DNA of 64,000 bases from positions 28,770,001 through 28,834,000 of the forward strand of contig NC_086108.1 of NCBI RefSeq assembly GCF_963921235.1. Reading direction: 5' to 3'. The position numbers were made by a program, and so were the translations under genes. Below the pieces are notes generated by a model. That model worked only from the letters and a program-made list of their open reading frames with translations. It made no database searches and was not told the origin of the DNA. Origin of the DNA: Mobula hypostoma. Its lineage: Eukaryota. Of this stretch, positions 1-61,261 are shown one piece after another (position 1 is the stretch's first letter; each line of letters opens with the position of its first letter).

Positions 1-89
1 CAGCATAACAAAACTTTCAATTTTCAGATACATTTACATTTCTTCCCCCACAGATATCAGCTATCAGAACACTTCCATCAAAATATAGA

Positions 90-2148
90 CGTCACAACGT
101 CCTGTACAAAAGCCCTTATTACTACAGCAGACAGGTTTACATCTACACACTGCAGAAAAAGTTGCCATGTTTTATGAAAACTATTTGTTTTTGAGTGTAA
201 CATACATGCCAAAAAGTCCAAAGGAATGTATTCCATGATTAATTTACGCCAACCAAAAAGTCCAGGGGTCTTATCGGATATCCAACAAAGTGAAATGTTC
301 TTCCTCGCACAAAAAGCCAGGAAGTTAAAAAGTTTTTTCTGATGTGCATTAATAATACGACTGCTGGGAAGCCTAGGAGAAAAGGCACTGAGACCAGTTC
401 AAGCTCCATCTTCAGAATCTTTTGCATTTCACCCAAAATATCATTCCAGTATGCCTGAAGTTTGGGACAAGTCCAAAAACAGTGGGTGAAAGTTCCAGTA
501 TTTACTTTACATTTAGAACACACTGGAGAAACCCCCGTCTTAAATTTCGAGAGACGATCTGTAGTCAAATGGGCTCTTTGCAGAATTTTGAGTTGCAATG
601 CTTTAGTTCTATTACAAACAGAAATTTTCTTTGCATTATCACAGATGTCTTCCCATATTTCAGCTGTAATTTCTACTCCCAGCTCTTCCTCCCAGACCCT
701 TCCCCGCTGCTCAGCCTCTCCACAAGAACATTCCCTCAGGATGCCGTAAAAAGTACTAATGGAGACTTCACCCTTAGAACAAAATACCCTCTTTTCTATG
801 TCAGAACTATAGAAATCAGTTAACAATGTTTTTTTTCCTGTATATAATCTCTTATCTGAAAGAAACAAAAAAGATCCTTGTTTGCTATGTTAAATTTCTG
901 TACTATTTGACGAAAAGATATCATCGTTCCTTCATCAAACAAATTTCCTACATGGAAAATACCCTTAGAAATCCAAAGTTTAAATCCAGAATCCATTATG
1001 CCAGGCTGAAAATCTGGACTGCCGGTTATTGGAGTGAAGGGTGGTATTTTCGCTGTGTTGCCCTAAATTTGTCGCACCGCCCTCCAAACCCTGACTGTAT
1101 AATTGTTATTGGATTGCAACAATACACCTTAATTAGTTTCATCTTATTGAGGAACAGCAAATTAATAAGAGGGCATTTTGCTTGTGAAGCTTCAATGTCT
1201 AGACAAATTGAGGAGGGGCCCCTGCAAACCCAGTCAACCACATAAGATAAAAAGGAACTTAAGTGATATTTTTTAATGTCTGGAAAATCCAGACCCCCTA
1301 GACTACTGGGAAGCTGTAACTTAGACATTTTAACACAGGCTCTTTTTTTGTTCCAGATGAAAGAAACAAACCAGCCATTTATTTTTTTAAGTATTTGTTG
1401 GGTAAAAATGACTGAAATCATTCATATTGGGTAGAGCAGACGAGGAAGAATGTTCATTTTGTTCAAGGATATTTGGCCAAGCCAAGAAATGGGAAGAGTG
1501 CTCCATCGCTCAAGATCCTGTTTGATTTTGTCAAATAACTGTGTAAAGTTAGCTTTGAACAATTGATCAAACGTAGGGGTGATAAATATGCCTAAGTAAA
1601 CAAAACCTGTCTGCGACCATTTAAAGGGGAAAACATCCTGAGTGTCAGGTACCTGTTGCAGATTCCCCAGAGGGATAGCCTCTGATTTAGTAAAGTTTAT
1701 TTTATAACCTGAAAAGGCGCTAAATGAATTGTTGCATTGTATAAGGTTGGTGCACTGATATAGCAGTGTTTGATAAGAAAATTAGAACATCATCCGCATA
1801 CAATGTAATTTTATGTGACTATAGTCCTATGTCTGGAGCAGATATTTTGGTGTCTCGCTGAATAGCCTCAGCCAATGGCTCGATCACTAGTGTGAAAAGT
1901 AGTGGTGATAAAGGGCAGCCCTGCCGGCTGCCCCTCAGAATAGTAAAATTATCCGACCTAATATCATTAGTGAGAATCGCAGCCAAAGGGTCATTATAAA
2001 GAATCTTTACCCACTTAATAAAATTATTGCCCAAATCAAATCGTTCTAAAGTGAAAAAAAATTTGGCCATTTGACACGATCAAAGGCCTTTTCTGCATCT
2101 AAGGAAACCACCAAGCCGTCCACTGCCTGTTGCTGACATGCCTGAATC
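90..2148 (-). mobile_element. L1-clade LINE, 5'-truncated decayed ORF2 (RT + C-terminal cysteine-rich motif)
   Basis: Minus-strand remnants RGSRQGCPLSPLLFTLVIEPLA, HKITLYADDVLI (~1780-1815), LGGLDFPD and CSKCKVNTGTFTHCFWTCPKL; several frameshifts. Confidence 0.85.
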
Positions 2149-4425: not shown

Positions 4426-5614
4426 AATTACAGTAATTGACACACTTAGAACCTATTAAGTCATTATAAATGTAATTACTTGTGGACATAGTCCAACACA
4501 ACAAACCCCGAAAATTTCAAGAACACTTTAAATGAGGTGGCGCCTACAAAAGAGAACCACTTCACAAGAACAATTGAAGGTTCTGTTATTCAAGCCATTT
4601 CAATGTCTATTAAAATTCAACGTCTACAGCCCATGCTGCCATGTTTTAAGGAAATAAAATTGTTGAGAAAGATGAAGGGCAAATGCAGACTGAACTGAGC
4701 TGCTTGTTCAATAGGAAAACTTTGGCCATAAGCCATTCAGCACGATTTGGACAAACATGGAAACTTGAGATGAGCTTGGAGTTCAGAAGCTGGTGTGTTG
4801 AACCCATTATCAGAGCAATGATGACTGGGGAGAGAGGAGACTTGGAAGAGCAAAGTGCAGGAAAATGCATAAACGGGTTAGCTTCAAGGTTTCAATTATT
4901 TTTAAGTACTTAAAGCACCTTTAGTTACTTTATCAAAAAAATATTTGAATGCTTTACATAAAGCTCTTTAATAACAAGCATTAGGAAAACAGTCAAATGT
5001 CTTAATCAGCTTTTGAAAATCTCATACTCAATCCTTTACCCTGTCCTGCTCCAGATGCTCTGTTGCCTAATTAAGTTTTGCTTCCTGACTCTAAGAGAAA
5101 TGCCTATTACAGCATTTATAGGATGTTTTATTATACAATTTCCACTTTGTCCATATTAGGACTTTTGACCAATCTTTTAACAACTCTTCCTTAAACCTCA
5201 ACACAAATCAAGACCCATTGTCAGCCACCAGCTACCGTGGTCTTTAATCAGAGCACCACTTGAGTGCAAAAATACTAAGTTTACTATCAAAATAGTAATT
5301 CAGGCCATGCAAATACACATATTGAGAATAAGAAATTGTAATATCATTGATGTATGCAGGACAGCAGCAGGAAAGAGCAGTGCTAATTTTAACACAGTAA
5401 TCTGATTTTAAAAAAGCTTCTAAAACCCAGTGGACGATTTCCTTCGCATTGATGGGTAGGATCAGTGCCTTCTCTATTTCTTGTGATAGATTCAGCAAGG
5501 AAGATGCTCTTGTACTGTCACTTAATGTACTTTACACAATATTAAGTGGGGTTCAATAACAGCTGGTTGTTAATCCAACCCATTACCTTTCTTTTCAACT
5601 ACACAGAACTTAGT

Positions 5615-24859: not shown

Positions 24860-25554
24860 ACCCTCTACCCATCCCTTCTGGAACCCTGTAACTGCAGATG
24901 CTTATTCCTAAACCACCTCCCTCACTACCATTCAGAAACTTAAACAGCCTCTCTAGGTGAGGCAAGGATTTACTTGCACCTCTCCAACCTTGGCTATTGC
25001 ATTCGGTATTCCCAATGTGGCCACCTCTACATCGGAGAGACCAAGCCTGGACTATGTAGTTGGTTTGTGAAACACTCTACACTTCATACAATGGCCTTCC
25101 CAGCCCAAGGTGACAAGCCACTTCAATAACCCCTCCCCTTCTCCTGACAACCCTGGCCTTCTCCACTGCCCTGCTAAGGCCCAATGCAATCTAGAGGAAC
25201 AACACTTCGTTTTGCCTGGGTAGTTTACGATCTAATGATACAAAAATTGGATTCTCCAATATCAGGTAATCCTTCCCTTCTAATCTTTCCCAAACATTCT
25301 CTCTCTGATCCAACTCCATTCCTCCCATTTATGTCCCCATTTCCAAGCATCCATTCCAGTTCCCTAACGCTCATTTTTGGCACACATTCCCTCCCGGTTC
25401 CATCTACTGGTTTCCCTCTTTGGTTCCATCTGCCTTTCACCTCTCCCATAATCGATCCCAGTATTACTTTTCTTACTTATCAGATACCACACATAGAGCC
25501 TTTGTCACCAACTGGTCTCTGATTCCACCTTTGCCCTTCCAATTATGGTCCATC
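24860..25554 (+). mobile_element. Old Penelope-like fragment (GIY-YIG remnant + 3' region), continues at ~29308-29490
   Basis: tattgcattcggtattcccaatgtggccacctctacatcggagagacc (..CGHLYIGET), aligns by eye to 38050-38340. Confidence 0.7.
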
Positions 25555-25705
25555 AGCGAATCAGCCGAGACCGGGAGGGGGAGCAGCGCCGGGACCCCAC
25601 CAGGTAGGAGAGAGGTCCGGCAGGGAGAAAGACCCTTTCCTCCTCCCCCTCTCCCTTTCTCTCCGCACACTGGTCTCCTACACTCTGCTCATCACCCCGC
25701 CCCCC

Positions 25706-26618
25706 CGTCTCTGTAACCCCTACACTCCCCATCCTCCTGTTCAAACCCCTCGCTCACCCCCATCTCTGTAATCCCACACTCCCTGTCCTCCTGTTCAAAC
25801 CCCTCCCTCGCCCCCGTCTGTAATCCCACACTCCCCATCCTCCTGTTCAAATCCCTCCTTCGCCCCATCTCTGTAATCCCACACTCCCCCCTCCTGTTCA
25901 AACCCCTCGCTCGCCCCCATCTCTGTAATCCCACACTTCCTGTCCTCCTGTTCAAACCCCTCCCTCACCCCCTCCCTATCTCTGTAACCCCTACACTCCC
26001 CATCCTCCTGTTCAAACCCCTCCCTCACCCCCCTCTATCTCTGTAACCCCAACACTCTCCCCTCCTGTTCAAACCCTTCCCTCACCCCGTCTCTGTAATC
26101 CCACACTCCCCATCCTCCTGTTCAAACCCCTCCCTTGCCCCATCTCTGTAATCCCACACTCCCTGTCCTCCTGTTCAAACCCCTCCCTATCTCTGTAACC
26201 CCTACACTCTCCCCTCCTTTTCAAAGCCCTCCCTCACCCCCCCGTCTCTGTAATCCCACACTCCCCCCACCTGTTCAAACCCCTTGCTCATCCCCGTCTC
26301 TGTAATCCCACACTCCCCATCTTCCTGTTCAAACCCCTCCCTTGCCCCCGTCTCTGTAATCCCACACTCCCTGTCCTCCTGTTCAAGCCCCTCCCTCCCC
26401 GTCTCTGTAATCCCACACTCCCCATCCTCCTGTTCAAACCCCTCCCTCACCCCATTTCTGTAATCCCACACTCCCCCCTCCTGTTCAAACCCCTCGCTCG
26501 CCCCCATCTCTGTAATCCCACACTCCCTGTCCTCCTGTTCAAACCCCTCCCTCACCCCCTCCCTATCTCTGTAACCCCTACACTCACCCCTCCTGTTCAA
26601 ACCCCTCCCTATCTCTGT
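25706..26618. repeat. C-rich minisatellite, ~17 units of ~50-60 bp
   Basis: Unit ctctgtaatcccacactccccatcctcctgttcaaacccctccctcacccc(g/a)t, with higher-order block similarity (~25885-25995 vs ~26475-26585). Confidence 0.95.
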
Positions 26619-26620
26619 GT

Positions 26621-26790
26621 AGGGAGCTCTGAGGAGAGGGAGTACCTTTGGTGCTGATAGCTGCGCCTCACTAAGGTGGGGATGGAAGGCATCACTGGAC
26701 CTCACTCATCTCCTAATTCTCTCACTTGTTGGCTCCTCATGCCACACCCTGGAAACCGCTTCAGCTAGCGGGCGAAAACAAGTGAGAGGG
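26621..26790 (+). ncRNA. HDV-like (delta) self-cleaving ribozyme motif, mutated, at the RTE 5' end
   Basis: P2 ctctcacttgtt(26719-30)/aacaagtgagag(26777-88); P3 ggc/gcc with L3 tcctcat; P1' acaccct; P1.1 gg; P4 ccgct/agcgg; J4/2 gcgaa with catalytic C at 26773. Confidence 0.75.
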
Positions 26791-29297
26791 TGGTCTCATT
26801 ACTACACCACGAGGTGATCATCCCAACGGCGGAGCAGGCGGAAGAGGAGACATCTCCCAACGGCTGCAAAGGCGGATGAGGATGTCCAACAATGGGTAGG
26901 GAGGCTTGCGAGCACGCCGCAAGAACCGCCGTAGACCCACAACACTCAGGGCTTGTCTACCTAGCGTGTGAAGCCTGGATTCGGCAGACTGCGCGGAAGA
27001 AACCATCACTGGTTCAATGGGCAGAAAGGCGATTCTCAGCAATGTGTCGTGGAGCGCTAAGAGGGCACAGTGAGACACACAGAACACTGCTGGCCATCCA
27101 CTGCATCCTGACCTATCTCCAGCCGTCTCGACTATGTCTTGCCACTGGGTCCAGATAGGCCGGAACGAGAGAGTGAGGCTGATGACCTGCGCAACTCTCC
27201 CTCACTTTAATCCAAGTCAAGCGCAAGTCATGACTTCAAACCCAACGCGCAACCTAAAGTCCTGTGGTGATGGGGGAGTGGCAAAGCAGCAGGTACGGAT
27301 ACACTGGAAGCTGTAGTCACAAACCTGCACACAGGCGGCCCAGGGCGTAGGGTCGCTCTCTACTGGACCGAAGCAGCAGTTGAGTTCGGCAGCCCCCTGG
27401 GTGTCTGAGCAGCCCTCTTCAGGGTCGCTCTGCTCACCTCCATGGAGGAAGGGGCTGGAAAAGGTGCCTCAAACATAGTCTGCTTCACCTCACCCTGGCC
27501 AGCTTACCGCGGCTGGTGGGGATCCCTCATTGCGGTCGACCTACAACAGTTAAGAAGAAAGTGATGGTGCTCAACCTTGGCACATGGAACGTGAGAACTC
27601 TGCGAGATAACATCAAGGCAGACAGACCAGAGAGAAGAACTGCACTGGTTGCAAAAGAGCTAGCTCGCTACAACGTGGACATAGCAGCTCCCAGCGAAAC
27701 ACCCCCAGCAGACAAGGGCCGGCTGACAGAACGTAGTGGTAGATACACGTTCTTCTGGAGCAGTCGCAGTAGCGCTGAACGACGAGAAGCAGGCGTGAGA
27801 TTTGCCATCAATTCTAACCTTGCCCGTAAACTCACCAAGCACCCAGAGAGCATCAATGACCGCCTGATGACACTTCAGCTCCCACCTGCAAACAAGAAGA
27901 GTGCTACGCTGATTAGTGCCTATGCTCCCACCATGACCAACCCGGATGACATTAAAGACAAGTTCTATGAAGAACTCAACGCCCTCATCTCAGCAATCCC
28001 ACAGTCAGAGAAGCTCATCGTTCTCAGGGACTTCAATGCCAGAGTAGGGACAGACTACCAAACCTGGATGACGGCGACGAGTCGGAGGCCTTCCCAGTGA
28101 CAAATGGCGTCAAACAAGGCTGCGTTCTTGCCCCGACTCTGTTCAGTATGGTATTCTCTGCCATGCTGACAGATGCCTTCTGTAACTACGAAGAAAGAAT
28201 CCACGTCAGGTACAGGACTGACGGCAGGTTGTTCAACCTTAGGCGCCTGCAGGCAGTTACAAAGGTGCGAGAGACTGTCATCAGAGACTTGTTGTTTGCT
28301 GATGACTGCGCACTCAACGCCAGCACAGAGCAGGAGATGCAGTGTGAAATGGACTGCTTCTCACAAGCCTGCGACAACTTTGGTCTCACTATCAGCACTA
28401 AAAAGACCGAAGTTATGTACCCGCCTGCCGCAGGAAAGCCATACCAGGAGCCGCGCATCACGGTGAAGGGCCAGAACCTCCAGGTAGTGGATAACTTCAC
28501 CTACCTGGGCAGCATACTCTCTCGCACAGTGAACATAGATGCTGAGGTCAACAACAGGATTGCCAAAGCCAGCGCCGCCTTTGGGAGACTCCGTGAGAAC
28601 GTCTGGGAGCAGAGAGGACTCAGCTTTACCACCAAGCTGAAGGTCTACTGTGCAGTGGTCCTTACCACCCTCCTTTACGCCAGCGAGACCTGGACTGTCT
28701 GCAGCAGACACGCCAAATAGCTCAACCACTTTCACCTGAGCTGTCTCCGCAGACTCCTCCACATCAGGTGGCAGGACAAAGTCCCCGACACGGAAATCCT
28801 GGAACGAGCTGGGCTCTGCAGCGTCTACACCCTCCTGCTGAAAGCCCAAGCCAGGTGGGCTGGACATGTAGTCAGAATGCCAGACAGCCGATTGCCTAAG
28901 CAGCCGCTGTACGGAGAACTGTATCAGGGCAAGCGCTCAGTCGGGGGGGCAGAAGAAACGTTACAAAGACTGCTTCAAAGCATCCCTCAAAGGCCTCGGT
29001 GTCGACATCAACACGTGGGAGACGCTTGCCCTCGACCGTCCAGCTTCGCGCAGCAAGATCACCACAGGAGCCCATGCAGCTGAAGTCAGGCGCATCATCG
29101 AGGCGCAACGAAAGCATGCTGTGCGCAAGGCCCGAGCAGCATCCCCTGCCACGACAGCACCCACCCACTTGTGTCCCACATGTGCGCGAGCCATCAGGGC
29201 CCGGATTGGCCTCATCAGTCACCTCCGGACCCACAGCCACCAATCTCCCATTTGACTTTGAAGCCATGGTCATCTTTGACTACGAAGGACGAACAAC
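26621..29297 (+). mobile_element. RTE (BovB-like) LINE with long 5' region and internal deletion
   Basis: APE GTWNVRTL..SET..ISAYAPT..DFNARVG; RT GVKQGCVLAPTLFS..LLFADD..YLGS; C-terminal CPTCARAIRARIGLISHLRTH; aacaac tail; APE joined directly to mid-RT at ~28066-28070. Confidence 0.9.
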
Positions 29298-30072
29298 ATG
29301 GTCCATCCATCACCTAATGACCCTCAATGCACCACTCCCCTTCTCTTCTTTATACTGGCAATCTTCCAACTCCACTCCCAGTTTGAGTGCAGGGTCTCAA
29401 CTCTAGATGTTGGCAATTCCTCCCAAACCTCTGCCCACCCCTCCCAAAACACACACAAAGTTTGTTTGACCCATAGAGTTGCTCCACCAGATAGGTTCAA
29501 AAGTACACATCCCTGATTCCTCAGCCCTGCTATAAAAACTGTAAATCCTTCACATTTCCCCCATTTCTGAGGAAGGGTAACTGATGTGAAATATTAGCTA
29601 GCTTCCAATTCTACAGGTGTTGTTTGAGTTCCTGAAGTATTTTTATCTCATAAAAGGCCATGTGGGTTCAATGATTATGTGGTTCCTTCCTGTGCTGTAG
29701 ACTGAATCCAGAGGAACTGAGATCTCAGCTATCGAACCCAAACCAACTGAACTGAAATTTAAAAAAAACTGTTCCTTTATTTCAATGAAACACAAAGGCA
29801 GAAACAAGGCAACTTCTAGTGTTAGAAGAAGATTTGGTGGAAAGCAATTTATGGATGCAAGCATTCCATTCCTCATTTTAAAAAAAAAGCATTATCTCCA
29901 CACTGGAAAAAAAAGCACTTTGTAGGATCTAAGGCATAAAGAAAATCAGATACATTCTGTTCCTACACAAAGCCATATATCACACGAAAAGACTGCTCCT
30001 CTCCTACTGCTAATCTAGACTGAAGTATTCATCAGATGCAGCACTACGCAAAGTTCCAGCACAAGAGTCAGT

Positions 30073-35986: not shown

Positions 35987-38641
35987 ACTGAAGGAAGAGT
36001 GAGTAAGGGATTTGAAAGCTGGAGGGGGAGGGGGAGATGCAAAATGATAGGAGAAGACAGGAGGGGGAGGGATAGAGCTGAGAGCTGGACAGGTGATTGG
36101 CAAAAGGGGATACGAGAGGATCATGGGACAGGAGGTCCGGGAAGAAAGACGGGGGGGGGTGACCCAGAGGATGGGCAAGAGGTATATACAGAGGGACAGA
36201 GGGAGAAAAAGGAGAGCGAGAGAAAGAATGTGTGCATAAAAATGAGTAACAGATGGGGAACGAGGGGGAGGTGGGGCCTTCGCGGAAGTTAGAGAAGTCG
36301 ATGTTCATGCCATCAGGTTGGAGGCTACCCAGACGGAATATAAGGTGTTGTTCCTCCAACCTGAGTGTGGCTTCATCTTTACAGTAGAGGAGGCCATGGA
36401 TAGACATGTCAGAATGGGAATGGGATGTGGAATTAAAATGTGTGGCCACTGGGAGATCCTGCTTTCTCTGGCGGACAGAGCGTAGATGTTCAGCAAGTCC
36501 CCATTCCAACCTCACTCCTTCAGAACGCTCTGCTCTCCACTCCCTCCGCACTAATCCTAACCTTATTATTAAACCCGCTGATAAGGGGGGTGCTGTTGTA
36601 GTCTAGTGTACTGACCTCTACCTTGCCGAGGCACAGCAACAACTCGCGGATACCTCCTCTTATTTACCCCTCGATCGTGACCCCACTAAGGAGCACCAGG
36701 CCATTGTCTCCCACACTATCACCGACCTTATCCGCTCAGAGGATCTCCCATCCACTGCTACCAACCTTATAGTTCCCACACCCCGCACTTCCCGTTTCTA
36801 CCTCCTACCCAAGATCCACAAACCTGCCTGTCCTGGCCGACCTATTGTCTCAGCTTGCTCCTGCCCCACCGAACTCGTTTCTGCATACCTCGACACTGTT
36901 TTATCACCCCTAGTTCAATCCCTTCCGACCTACGTTCGTGACACTTCTCACGCTCTTAAACTTTTCAATGATTTTAAGTTCCCTGGCCCCCACCGCTTTA
37001 TTTTCACCATGGATGTCCAGTCCTTATATACTTCCATCCCCCATCAGGAAGGTCTCAAAGCTCTACGCTTCTTTTTGGATTCCAGACCTAATCAGTTCCC
37101 GTCTACCACCACTCTGCTCCATCTAGCGGAATTAGTCCTTACTCTTACTAATTTCTCCTTTTGCTCCTCCCATTTCCTCCAAACTAAAGGTGTAGCTATG
37201 GGCACCCGTATGGGTCCCAGCTATGCCCGCCTTTTTGTTGGGTTTGTGGAACAATCTATGTTCCGTGCCTATTCTGGTATCTGTCCCCCACTTTTCCTTC
37301 GCTACATCGACGACTGCATTGGCGCTGCTTCCTGCACGCATGCAGAACTCGTTGACTTTATTAACTTTGCCTCCAACTTTCACCCTGCCCTCAAGTTTAC
37401 CTGGTCCATTTCCGACACCTCCCTCCCCTTTCATGATCTTTCTGTCTCTATCTCTGGAGACAGCTTATCCACTGATGTCTACTATAAGCCTAACTATTCC
37501 TCTTCTCACCCTGTCTCCTGCAAAAACGCCATCCTCTTCTCGCAATTCCTCCGTCTCCGCCGCATCTACTCTCAGGATGAGGCTTTTCATTCTAGGACGA
37601 GGGAGATGTCTTCATTTTTTAAAGAAAGGGGCTTCCCTTCCTCCACTATCAACTCTGCTCTTAAATGCATCTCCCCCATTTCACGTACATCTGCTCTCAC
37701 TCCATCCTCCCACCACCCCACTAGGAATAGGGTTCCCCTGGTCCTCACCTACCACCCCACCAGCCTCCGGGTCCAACATATTATTCTCCGTAACTTCCGC
37801 CACCTCCAACGGGATCCCACCACTAAGCACATCTTTCCCTCCCTCCCCCCCCTGCATTCCGCAGGGATCGCTCCCTACACAACTCCCTTGTCCATTCGTC
37901 CCCCCCATCCCTCCCCACTGATCTCCCTCCTGGCACTTATCCGTGTAAGCGGAACAAGTGCTACACATGCCCTTACACTTCCTCCCTTACCGCCATTCAG
38001 GGCCCCAAACAGTCCTTCCAGGTGAGGCATCACTTCACCTGTGAGTCGACTGGGGTGATATACTGCGTCCGGTGCTCCCGATGTGGCCTTTTATATATTG
38101 GTGAGACCCGACACAGACTGGGAGACCGCTTTGCTGAACATCTACGCTCTGTCCGCCAGAGAAAGCAGGATCTCCCAGTGGCCACACATTTTAATTCCAC
38201 ATCCCATTCCCATTCTGACATGTCTATCCACGGCCTCCTCTACTGTAAAGATGAAGCCACACTCAGGTTGGAGGAACAACACCTTATATTCCGTCTGGGT
38301 AGCCTCCAACCTGATGGCATGAACATTGACTTCTCTAACTTCCGCTAAGGCCCCACCTCCCCCTCGTTCCCCATCTGTTACTCATTTTTATGCACACATT
38401 CTTTCTCTCACTCTCCTTTTTCTCCCTCTGTCCCTCCGTATATACCTCTTGCCCATCCTCTGGGTCACCCCCCCCCTTGTCTTTCTCCCGGACCTCCTGT
38501 CCCATGATCCTCTCGTATCCCCTTTTGCCTATCACCTGTCCAGCTCTCAGCTCTATCCCTCCCCCTCCTGTCTTCTCCTATCATTTTGCATCTCCCCCTC
38601 CCCCTCCAGCTTTCAAATCCCTTACTCACTCTTCCTTCAGT

Positions 38642-59095: not shown

Positions 59096-59316
59096 CACAG
59101 GGCTTTGTCTTGATTTCCACCAGATTAACACTGATGAACACTACAATGCAAAATGCTACCCTTCTCAACTTGCTTACAGAGGAATCAATATTTTAACTGC
59201 TGATATACACAGGGCTTTGTCTTGATTTCCACCAGATTAACACTGATGAACACTACAATGCAAAATGCTACCCTTCTCAACTTGCTTACAGAGGAATCAA
59301 TATTTTAACTGCTGAT
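59096..59316. repeat. Perfect tandem duplication of 109 bp
   Basis: 59096-59204 identical to 59208-59316, 3-nt spacer ata. Confidence 0.95.
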
Positions 59317-60910: not shown

Positions 60911-61261
60911 GGAAGGGGAGGGGGGAAGGAAGGGGAGGGGGAAAGGGAGGGGGGAAAGGAAGGGGAGGGGGAAAGGAAGGGGGGAAGGAAGGGGGGGAAG
61001 GAAGGGGGGGAAGGAAGGGGGGAAGGAAGGGGGGGAAGGAAGGGGGGGAAGGAAGGGGGGGAAGGAAGGGGGGAAGGAAGGGGGGAAGGAAGGGGGGAAG
61101 GAAGGGGGGAAGGAAGGGGGAAAGGAAGGGGAGGGGAAAGGAAGGGGAGGGGGAAAGGAAGGGGAGGGGGAAAGGAAGGGGAGGGGGAAAGGAAGGGGAG
61201 GGGGAAAGGAAGGGGAGGGGGAAAGGAAGGGGAGGGGGGAAAGAGGAAGGGGGGGGAGAAG
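60911..61261. repeat. Pure polypurine (GGAAG/GGGGA-type) tract, ~350 nt
   Basis: No pyrimidine seen on the plus strand across the interval; many G4-G7 runs. Confidence 0.95.

What the first reader, a model, noticed from the sequence alone, without database searches (positions are those of the whole stretch)
25555..29297. Composite insertion (exon-like leader + minisatellite + deleted RTE) bounded by one TSD: SVA-like element or 5' transduction
Seen: the 10-mer atggtccatc flanks both sides (25545-54, 29298-307) and the interrupted old Penelope fragment resumes after it. Inside are a CpG-rich ~150-nt leader with a donor-like CAG|GTAGGA (GT at 25604), ~17 minisatellite units, then an RTE ending in aacaac. 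Inference: the whole 3.7 kb was reverse-transcribed as one RNA. It is either an unspliced transcript from a host promoter running through a donor-locus RTE, or a VNTR-bearing non-autonomous family analogous to primate SVA/LAVA.
Basis: partly seen in the sequence, partly recalled or inferred. Interest (0 to 1): 0.88.

Follow-up and report, generated by a model that had tools for sequence, protein, structure and literature searches.

The report
Broken-ribozyme retrotransposon carrying host gene end
This jumping gene is one of five copies that carry the end of a host zinc-finger gene, most likely because their common parent lost the three letters its self-cutting RNA needed to trim itself off the host's transcript.

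Summary
Observation confirmed: one 10-bp TSD bounds leader + 17-unit minisatellite + RTE-type LINE. It is a 5' transduction, not an SVA-like family. The leader is the last 53 nt of a host C2H2 zinc-finger ORF on contig C80 (the 'donor' holds its in-frame stop), followed by that gene's own minisatellite. Five genomic copies share one minisatellite|RTE junction. Four have their own TSD, three are full-length, one has a 5' inversion, and the window's 1.5-kb deletion is private. They are 5 of the 7 young copies found that keep the RTE head. That head folds as an HDV-like ribozyme, with five two-sided changes against a SINE-like family. All five transduced copies lack P1 pairs 1-3; the two copies without host sequence keep 6-7 of 7. 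Best reading (0.58): a parent inserted 2-3 nt short into the ZNF array could not cleave itself off the host RNA. Cleavage is untested, Rfam gave no hit, and no RTE lies at the ZNF locus today. The scan earlier noted ribozyme-headed retroelements and an RTE with host exons elsewhere in this genome, but not this family.

The parts
25545..25554 (+). left target-site duplication
25555..25607 (+). transduced 3' end of the host C2H2 zinc-finger ORF (end of last finger, short tail, TAG stop at 25605-07); source G000:C80 about 36,570,120-170, minus strand
25608..25701 (+). transduced unique sequence behind the stop (3' UTR, or unspliced intron)
25702..26616 (+). minisatellite, 54-bp unit, 17 copies here and about 1-6.5 in the four sister copies; same repeat forms a 1.5-kb array behind the source ORF and is abundant on C80:34.1-37.4 Mb
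26617..26788 (+). predicted HDV-like ribozyme at the RTE 5' end: P1 remnant 26617-20 (4 of 7 pairs), structured J1/2, P2 26719-30 with 26777-88, P3/L3 26731-43, P1' 26744-50, P1.1 26751-52, P4 26756-71, J4/2 26772-76
   Evidence: activity not tested
26789..28067 (+). rest of the RTE 5' leader and APE endonuclease part of the single ORF
28060..28067 (+). junction of a private 1.52-kb internal deletion, with a 4-nt microhomology
28068..29297 (+). RT part (one stop, one frameshift), 3' UTR and (AAC)n tail
29298..29307 (+). right target-site duplication
24950..25544 (+). old Penelope-like repeat, target of the insertion (left part)
29308..29470 (+). continuation of the old repeat behind the insertion
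   Evidence: 14 of 19 paralogues

Best explanation
A 5' transduction caused by a disabled ribozyme. (1) Elements of this RTE family begin with an HDV-like self-cleaving ribozyme whose cut site is the element's first base (fold and end position shown by comparison; cleavage inferred). (2) One copy inserted, in sense, into the minisatellite just behind the stop codon of a zinc-finger gene on C80, and lost 2-3 nt at its 5' end, that is pairs 1-3 of the 7-bp P1 helix (junction shown; place of insertion inferred). (3) Host transcripts through that copy were not trimmed, so the RNA was ZNF exon + minisatellite + whole RTE (inferred). (4) Target-primed reverse transcription of this RNA made at least five insertions that reach past the RTE head, with different 5' ends and array lengths (shown). 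(5) The window copy has its own 1.5-kb deletion and the longest array, 17 units (shown; timing unknown). (6) The parent is absent from the ZNF locus of this assembly: never fixed, or removed by recombination between flanking repeat units (absence shown; cause inferred).
For: One junction in 5 places, control 0. Separate TSDs of 10, 14, 12 and 9 bp in four copies; the fifth lacks its 3' part. All five extend in sense into one ZNF exon, up to about 290 nt before its stop. One copy carries an inverted 165-nt piece of that exon inside its TSD, as in twin priming. Named structure: 91% of 811 cells paired versus 37-54% for slid controls. Two-sided changes between the RTE and a SINE-like family at five pairs, one of them in P1. 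Own descriptor: 1 hit in both strands of the window, 0 in 20 shuffled windows. P1 positions 1-3 unpaired in 5 of 5 leader copies; 7/7 and 6/7 pairs in the 2 copies without leader; at least 6/7 in 19 of 23 SINE-like copies, whose mutual similarity mostly begins within a few nt of the predicted cut. PMC3774820 (passages): P1 pairing fixes the cut site, RTE ribozymes cut at the element's 5' junction, and single P1 mismatches go with loss of activity. PMC6765202 (passages): such RTEs lack promoters and are released from co-transcripts. PMC12593883 (passages): for part of SVA transductions the source element is missing.
Against: No RTE at the ZNF locus and no RTE tail followed by the minisatellite in the genome (one match, not the repeat). 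The five copies descend from one junction, so the P1/leader link is one event, not five. Rfam found nothing; my descriptor was written after seeing the sequence and missed the SINE heads and C18. The covariation contrasts only two families. No copy reaches the ZNF start or a spliced upstream exon. Two copies share a substitution that the ZNF gene lacks here and in a related species. Leader copies show nested but partly conflicting variants, which needs a long-lived recombining source or several lost masters. A 6/7 alternative P1 lies at +21 in 4 of 5 copies.
Confidence: 0.58

Rival explanations
1. Template-switch founder: the reverse transcriptase left the RTE RNA 2-3 nt before its end and jumped to the ZNF mRNA within the minisatellite (2-nt microhomology). 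The chimera inserted elsewhere, inside some transcript, and was the master; its broken P1 kept the leader attached.
For: No RTE at the ZNF locus; a substitution shared by two copies and absent from the gene; C36 and the inverted piece of C50b end within about 4 nt of each other, as if at a boundary. An earlier scan note reports single RTE/host-exon chimeras in this genome (not tested by me).
Against: None of the five copies can be parent of all: the window and C50b share four derived sites that C36 lacks, and each lacks sequence that the other has. No copy carries a second flank 5' of the ZNF piece. So this too needs lost masters.
Confidence: 0.15
2. Self-propagating composite: the captured exon, a CpG island, acts as an internal promoter, so leader-bearing copies became masters on their own; the lineage swapped ribozyme release for a captured host promoter.
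For: Source exon is 73-74% GC with CpG o/e 0.95-1.07. 5' ends fall in two tight pairs, about 290 nt (C36, C50b) and 50-55 nt (window, C80b) before the stop, with no unusually stable fold upstream (44th-86th percentile). Derived states are nested: C64, then C36, then window + C50b.
Against: Starts inside the island would equally occur at the ZNF locus. Two sites conflict with the nesting. No intermediate master is present, only five copies were found, and CpGs decayed in the C36 copy (34 versus 51).
Confidence: 0.12
3. Ordinary read-through 5' transduction: the RTE has its own promoter, the HDV-like fold is inactive or serves translation only, and the loss of 2-3 nt is incidental.
For: No Rfam match; cleavage untested; 5' truncation by a few bases also occurs in the SINE-like family (2 of 23).
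Against: The natural 5' end of both families coincides with P1 position 1, and P1 keeps a two-sided change across about 130 nt. With a working internal promoter, leader-free copies should dominate, yet they are 2 of 7 and form a separate sub-lineage.
Confidence: 0.12
4. SVA/LAVA-like non-autonomous VNTR family.
For: Composite build, array length varying from about 1 to 17 units, several TSD-bounded copies.
Against: Three of five copies hold the full 4.2-kb coding element; the deletion is private; the repeat is the source gene's own array, not a family core; five copies only.
Confidence: 0.03

Closest known systems
HDV-like ribozymes at the 5' ends of R2, R4, L1Tc, baggins and RTE elements (PMC3774820, PMC6765202; passages read)
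   Same: Nested double-pseudoknot order, long J1/2, predicted cut at the element's first base, release from a host co-transcript. In many R2 lineages the cut lies upstream and 9-36 nt of host 28S sequence travel with the element.
   Different: Here the cut is predicted to be lost rather than shifted, and hundreds of bases of a protein-coding host gene were carried to new sites. Activity untested.
RAP1GDS1/L1PA2 chimeras (Law and Burns, 10.1101/2025.02.02.635956; abstract and passages read)
   Same: A 5'-damaged LINE inside a host gene yields several independent insertions with the same host leader and distinct TSDs.
   Different: There the damage is to a promoter, the leader is spliced first exons and the source is still in place; the word 'ribozyme' does not occur in that text. 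Here the leader is an unspliced ORF end plus minisatellite and the source is missing.
SVA_F1 with MAST2 exon 1, and SVA 5' transduction groups (PMC12593883; passages read)
   Same: Single-origin host piece at the 5' end of a multi-copy group; variable tandem repeat; source elements often lost.
   Different: SVA is non-autonomous, L1-driven, and gained the exon by splicing; this is a coding RTE-type LINE whose repeat comes from the host locus.
Twister ribozymes of Perere-3, RTE clade (PMC8501958; passages read)
   Same: Ribozyme marks the 5' end of full-length RTE-clade copies.
   Different: Other ribozyme class; 'transduction' does not occur in that text.
5' inversion by twin priming (PMC2912911, PMC4245944; passages read)
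   Same: The C50b sister copy has an inverted 5' piece inside a 14-bp TSD.
   Different: In those assays it was nearly confined to human L1 in human cells; RTE was not assayed there.

Membership tests
RTE-clade LINE | single ORF of about 1,050-1,100 aa with APE and RT, element about 4 kb | tested here: met
   1,024 aa open in the C9 copy; best homologues mostly 1,040-1,100 aa
RTE-clade LINE | short-repeat 3' tail and TSD near 10-12 bp | tested here: met
   (AAC)n tails; TSDs 10, 14, 12, 9, 12 bp and one decayed 6-bp; RTE peak 10-12 bp per PMC4245944
RTE-clade LINE | RT phylogeny places it in the RTE clade | not tested
   no tree built; one search gave no clade names; the label rests on architecture and recall
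HDV-like ribozyme | helices P1, P2, P3, P1.1, P4 in nested double-pseudoknot order | tested here: met
   29 pairs, 91% of cells paired; two-sided changes in P1 and P2
HDV-like ribozyme | core bases: L3 beginning UCC, GG after P1', catalytic C and A in J4/2 (motif partly recalled) | tested here: met
   the C of J4/2 is invariant in 28 rows
HDV-like ribozyme | P1 of about 7 bp starting at the cut site | tested here: not met
   for the window copy and its four sisters 4 of 7; met in C18 (7/7) and nearly in C9 (6/7)
HDV-like ribozyme | match to a curated Rfam model | tested here: not met
   0 matches at E<=1 in 7 loci; the 100-nt J1/2 may explain this
HDV-like ribozyme | self-cleavage | not testable with these tools
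   needs a bench assay
5' transduction | host sequence in sense, inside the TSD, mapping to one other locus | tested here: met
5' transduction | source element adjacent to that host sequence | tested here: not met
   one assembly only
SVA/LAVA-type VNTR composite | non-autonomous, no ORF | tested here: not met
SVA/LAVA-type VNTR composite | central VNTR of variable length | tested here: met
   but the repeat is the host locus's array
SVA/LAVA-type VNTR composite | high-copy family with a shared composite structure | tested here: not met
   5 copies; deletion in 1

The most novel reading that the evidence does not exclude
A vertebrate RTE lineage lost ribozyme release through a 2-3 nt truncation and went on to propagate as a new composite, with a host zinc-finger exon serving as captured CpG-island promoter plus a VNTR. 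It may have seeded much of a burst of hundreds of copies: a change of transcription strategy caught in five fossils, and a general rule that P1 damage turns ribozyme-headed LINEs into carriers of host exons.
Probability: 0.15. Interest if true: 0.8.

Novelty: new variant of a known kind. Interest (0 to 1): 0.58.

Why it matters
That HDV-like ribozymes set the 5' end of RTE elements rests on in-vitro cleavage and on position. This family offers a natural loss-of-function test: the branch with intact P1 starts at the cut site, and the branch with broken P1 carries host RNA. It suggests a route to exon shuffling by non-L1 LINEs that can be tested genome-wide (shared 5' extensions should go with damaged P1) and at the bench with two natural sequences. 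My searches listed no paper that links ribozyme damage to 5' transduction, or that describes HDV-like ribozymes in RTEs of cartilaginous fish. The library lacks most subscription journals, and I could not open Ruminski et al. 2011 or Webb and Luptak 2011.

Tried and rejected
Rfam on 7 loci: no match. Orthologue of the ZNF protein: none for residues 1-150, only generic C2H2 proteins at 32-49% identity, so whether the gene has a later exon stays open. Sequencing runs: no RNA holder listed. Two runs guessed to be RNA hold three short exon pieces at depth 3-5 and none across the stop/donor motif: no statement on expression or splicing. Search for the source's 3' junction: one match, not the minisatellite. 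Hairpin stalls as cause of the clustered 5' ends: not supported. The 76-80% head matches as an older RTE outgroup: rejected, they are a short SINE-like family, so variants could not be rooted beyond the head. Share of the burst from the leader lineage: not determined; 14 of 14 other copies lack the C9/C18 variant at RTE site 3333, but that state may be ancestral. The P1 duplex energies used a mis-cut slice and are discarded. Minisatellite behind other ZNF genes: absent in 10 of 10 loci checked. C36 or the window copy as master of the rest: rejected by site patterns. Orthologous empty site in another species: not tested.

Full report
1. What is there. The window is G000:C50:28,770,001-28,834,000 of a 3.48-Gb genome; an earlier scan note calls it a ray genome, which I did not test. 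A 10-mer stands at 25545-54 and 29298-307 and nowhere else in the window. Between the two lie a 151-nt GC-rich leader, a 54-bp minisatellite of 17.0 units and an APE-RT element ending in AACAAC. The target was an old Penelope-like repeat: the left flank holds a decayed GIY-YIG-like frame, and the right flank aligns to the continuation of 14 of 19 paralogues above shuffles (a low-complexity comparison, and BLAST alone did not show it). One insertion is the plain reading.

2. Where the leader comes from. The leader has five matches in the genome (5 candidates, 5 scored). One of them, C80:36.570 Mb, is a 331-aa C2H2 zinc-finger ORF behind an acceptor-like AG, followed by a 1.5-kb array of the same minisatellite and two AATAAA about 0.2 kb later. 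No close paralogue of the exon was found (13 of 13 candidates scored). The window's leader is the last 53 nt of this ORF plus 94 nt behind it. The 'donor' contains the in-frame TAG, and its CAG is private to this copy; an intron is possible but not needed. There is no RTE in 50 kb around the gene. A related species holds the exon (one 1,091-nt contig, 29 other letters).

3. Five copies, one junction. A 25-nt pattern with one mismatch allowed finds the minisatellite|RTE junction at five places: window, C50:12.67 Mb (C50b), C36, C64 and C80:19.89 Mb (C80b); control 0. TSDs are 10, 14, 12 and 9 bp; C80b breaks off after 240 nt of RTE and its rest is not within 17 kb. C36, C50b and C64 are full-length, 4.18-4.19 kb. 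The window's 1.52-kb deletion has a 4-nt microhomology and is found once. The copies begin at different places in the exon. C36 starts about 290 nt before the stop; window and C80b 50-55 nt before it; C64 40 nt behind it. C50b has a 165-nt inverted piece reaching as far as C36, then a gap of about 100 nt, then the sense part, the layout of twin priming (PMC2912911, passages). Arrays measure 909, 343, 227, 164 and 65 nt. Copies differ 1.7-2.4% from the majority letter. A search with the RTE head scored 40 of 136 candidates: seven at 95-100%, the rest at 76-80%. The seven are the five leader copies and two without host sequence (C9, C18). The 3' end gave 684 candidates, the 40 scored all at 97% or more, so most copies are 5'-truncated. 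This excludes an SVA-like non-autonomous family and makes it a single-origin 5' transduction group.

4. Why the host RNA stayed attached. The first 172 nt of the RTE read as an HDV-like ribozyme (core motifs partly from recall): P2 of 12 bp, P3 with a UCC loop, P1' followed by GG, P4, and a G-C-N-A-A junction (coordinates). Rfam has no match. A descriptor of my own, written after seeing the sequence, hits once in both strands of the window and never in 20 shuffled windows or 300 shuffled elements; it misses the SINE heads and C18. The 76-80% matches are a 460-nt SINE-like family that shares only this head. I aligned 7 RTE and 21 of 23 SINE-like heads, leaving out two 5'-truncated ones. The named structure pairs in 91.1% of 811 cells, against 37-54% when slid; 0 of 500 shuffles reach the covariation score, though 381 reach the count of covarying pairs. 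Two-sided changes between the families fall at one P1 pair, one P2 pair and three J1/2 pairs. These are family-level differences between two lineages, so modest evidence. Most SINE-like copies begin within a few bases of P1 position 1; 11 of 23 keep 7/7 pairs, 8 keep 6/7 and 4 fewer. C18 keeps 7/7 and C9 6/7. All five leader copies have minisatellite bases at positions 1-3 and keep 4/7. PMC3774820 (passages) states that P1 pairing sets the cut site, that RTE ribozymes cut at the element's 5' junction, and that single P1 mismatches go with absent activity. PMC6765202 (passages) states that such RTEs lack promoters and are freed from co-transcripts. So a parent that inserted 2-3 nt short could not free itself, and its progeny kept what lay upstream. 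An alternative 6/7 P1 lies 21 nt inside the head in four of five copies, partly paired in J1/2; none of the seven young heads starts there.

5. What does not fit neatly. The parent is missing. C36 and C50b share a G-to-T change in the exon that is absent from the gene here, from a related species and from a second sample. Variants are nested (269 in window, C50b, C36; 101, 195, 804, 808 in window and C50b), but site 3185 and one leader site conflict, and the whole family is mosaic at four sites. None of the five can be parent of the others, so a long-lived, recombining source allele or several lost masters are needed. The 5' ends form two tight pairs without a strong fold upstream. This suggests discrete RNA starts inside the exon, which is a CpG island; it fits both the source locus and a self-propagating composite. 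The P1/leader association is one ancestral event.

6. Verdict. Shown: one TSD-bounded insertion; five copies of one junction; origin of leader and array in one ZNF gene; full-length sisters; an HDV-like fold whose P1 is cut at the junction. Inferred: cleavage by the native head, its loss in the parent, the parent's place in the ZNF array, and its later loss. Odds: disabled-ribozyme transduction from the ZNF locus 0.58, template-switch founder 0.15, captured promoter 0.12, ribozyme incidental 0.12, SVA-like 0.03.

7. Relation to known systems. It works like the RAP1GDS1/L1PA2 group (10.1101/2025.02.02.635956, abstract and passages) and SVA transduction groups (PMC12593883, passages), and uses a ribozyme class known in RTE and R2. 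It is not a member of the SVA/LAVA kind. The link from ribozyme damage to transduction was not in the listings (one search listed one paper on schistosome satellites, seen as a listing only). Ruminski et al. 2011 and Webb and Luptak 2011 could not be opened, no supplements were read, and Repbase or Dfam entries were not searchable. Earlier scan notes describe other ribozyme-headed elements and one RTE with host exons in this genome; a look-up with this head found none, nor did a word search. New variant of a known kind; interest 0.58.

Noticed in passing
L062-L084 (e.g. C12:31,731,052, C68:33,663,198): SINE-like family of about 460 nt, about 90% alike, headed by the same HDV-like ribozyme, with a (GAA)n tail and, in the copy inspected, a TSD; 23 loci read, 136 first-look candidates including the RTE heads. 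Its driver is not the young RTE beyond the head.
   Followed up: partly
L026:2402-2567 (C50:12.674 Mb): 5' inversion with the layout of twin priming in an RTE-type insertion; the inverted part is host exon.
   Followed up: partly
L034 (C18:124.41 Mb): Leader-free copy with its own 2.6-kb internal deletion, intact P1 and 12-bp TSD.
   Followed up: partly
L028 (C80:19.888 Mb): Leader copy that ends after 240 nt of RTE; a 16-nt deletion removes the stop/donor motif.
   Followed up: partly
C80:34.1-37.4 Mb: The 54-bp minisatellite is scattered in many arrays over the last 3.4 Mb of this contig (most of the listed matches among 639).
   Followed up: no
L031:2289-3592 and 4709-5147; L123: Other arrays upstream of the ZNF gene: 52 bp x 25, 64 bp x 7, and a 2.5-kb stretch with CpG o/e above 1.5.
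   Followed up: no
RTE sites 2516, 3185, 3382, 3623, 3869 (C36 numbering): Common non-CpG variants of the young family do not nest; copies look mosaic, as from recombination or template switching among masters.
   Followed up: partly
P0121-P0127: The RTE protein has unnamed relatives at 78-84% identity on 4-kb contigs of metagenome-type sources; possible horizontal spread.
   Followed up: no
window 36607-38348: Penelope-type element with a 472-aa RT frame and a GIY-YIG frame, with repeated ends nearby.
   Followed up: partly
window 78-1781 (-), 59096-59316, 60911-61260: LINE-like open frames on the minus strand; a perfect 112-bp tandem duplication; a GGAA-rich array.
   Followed up: no
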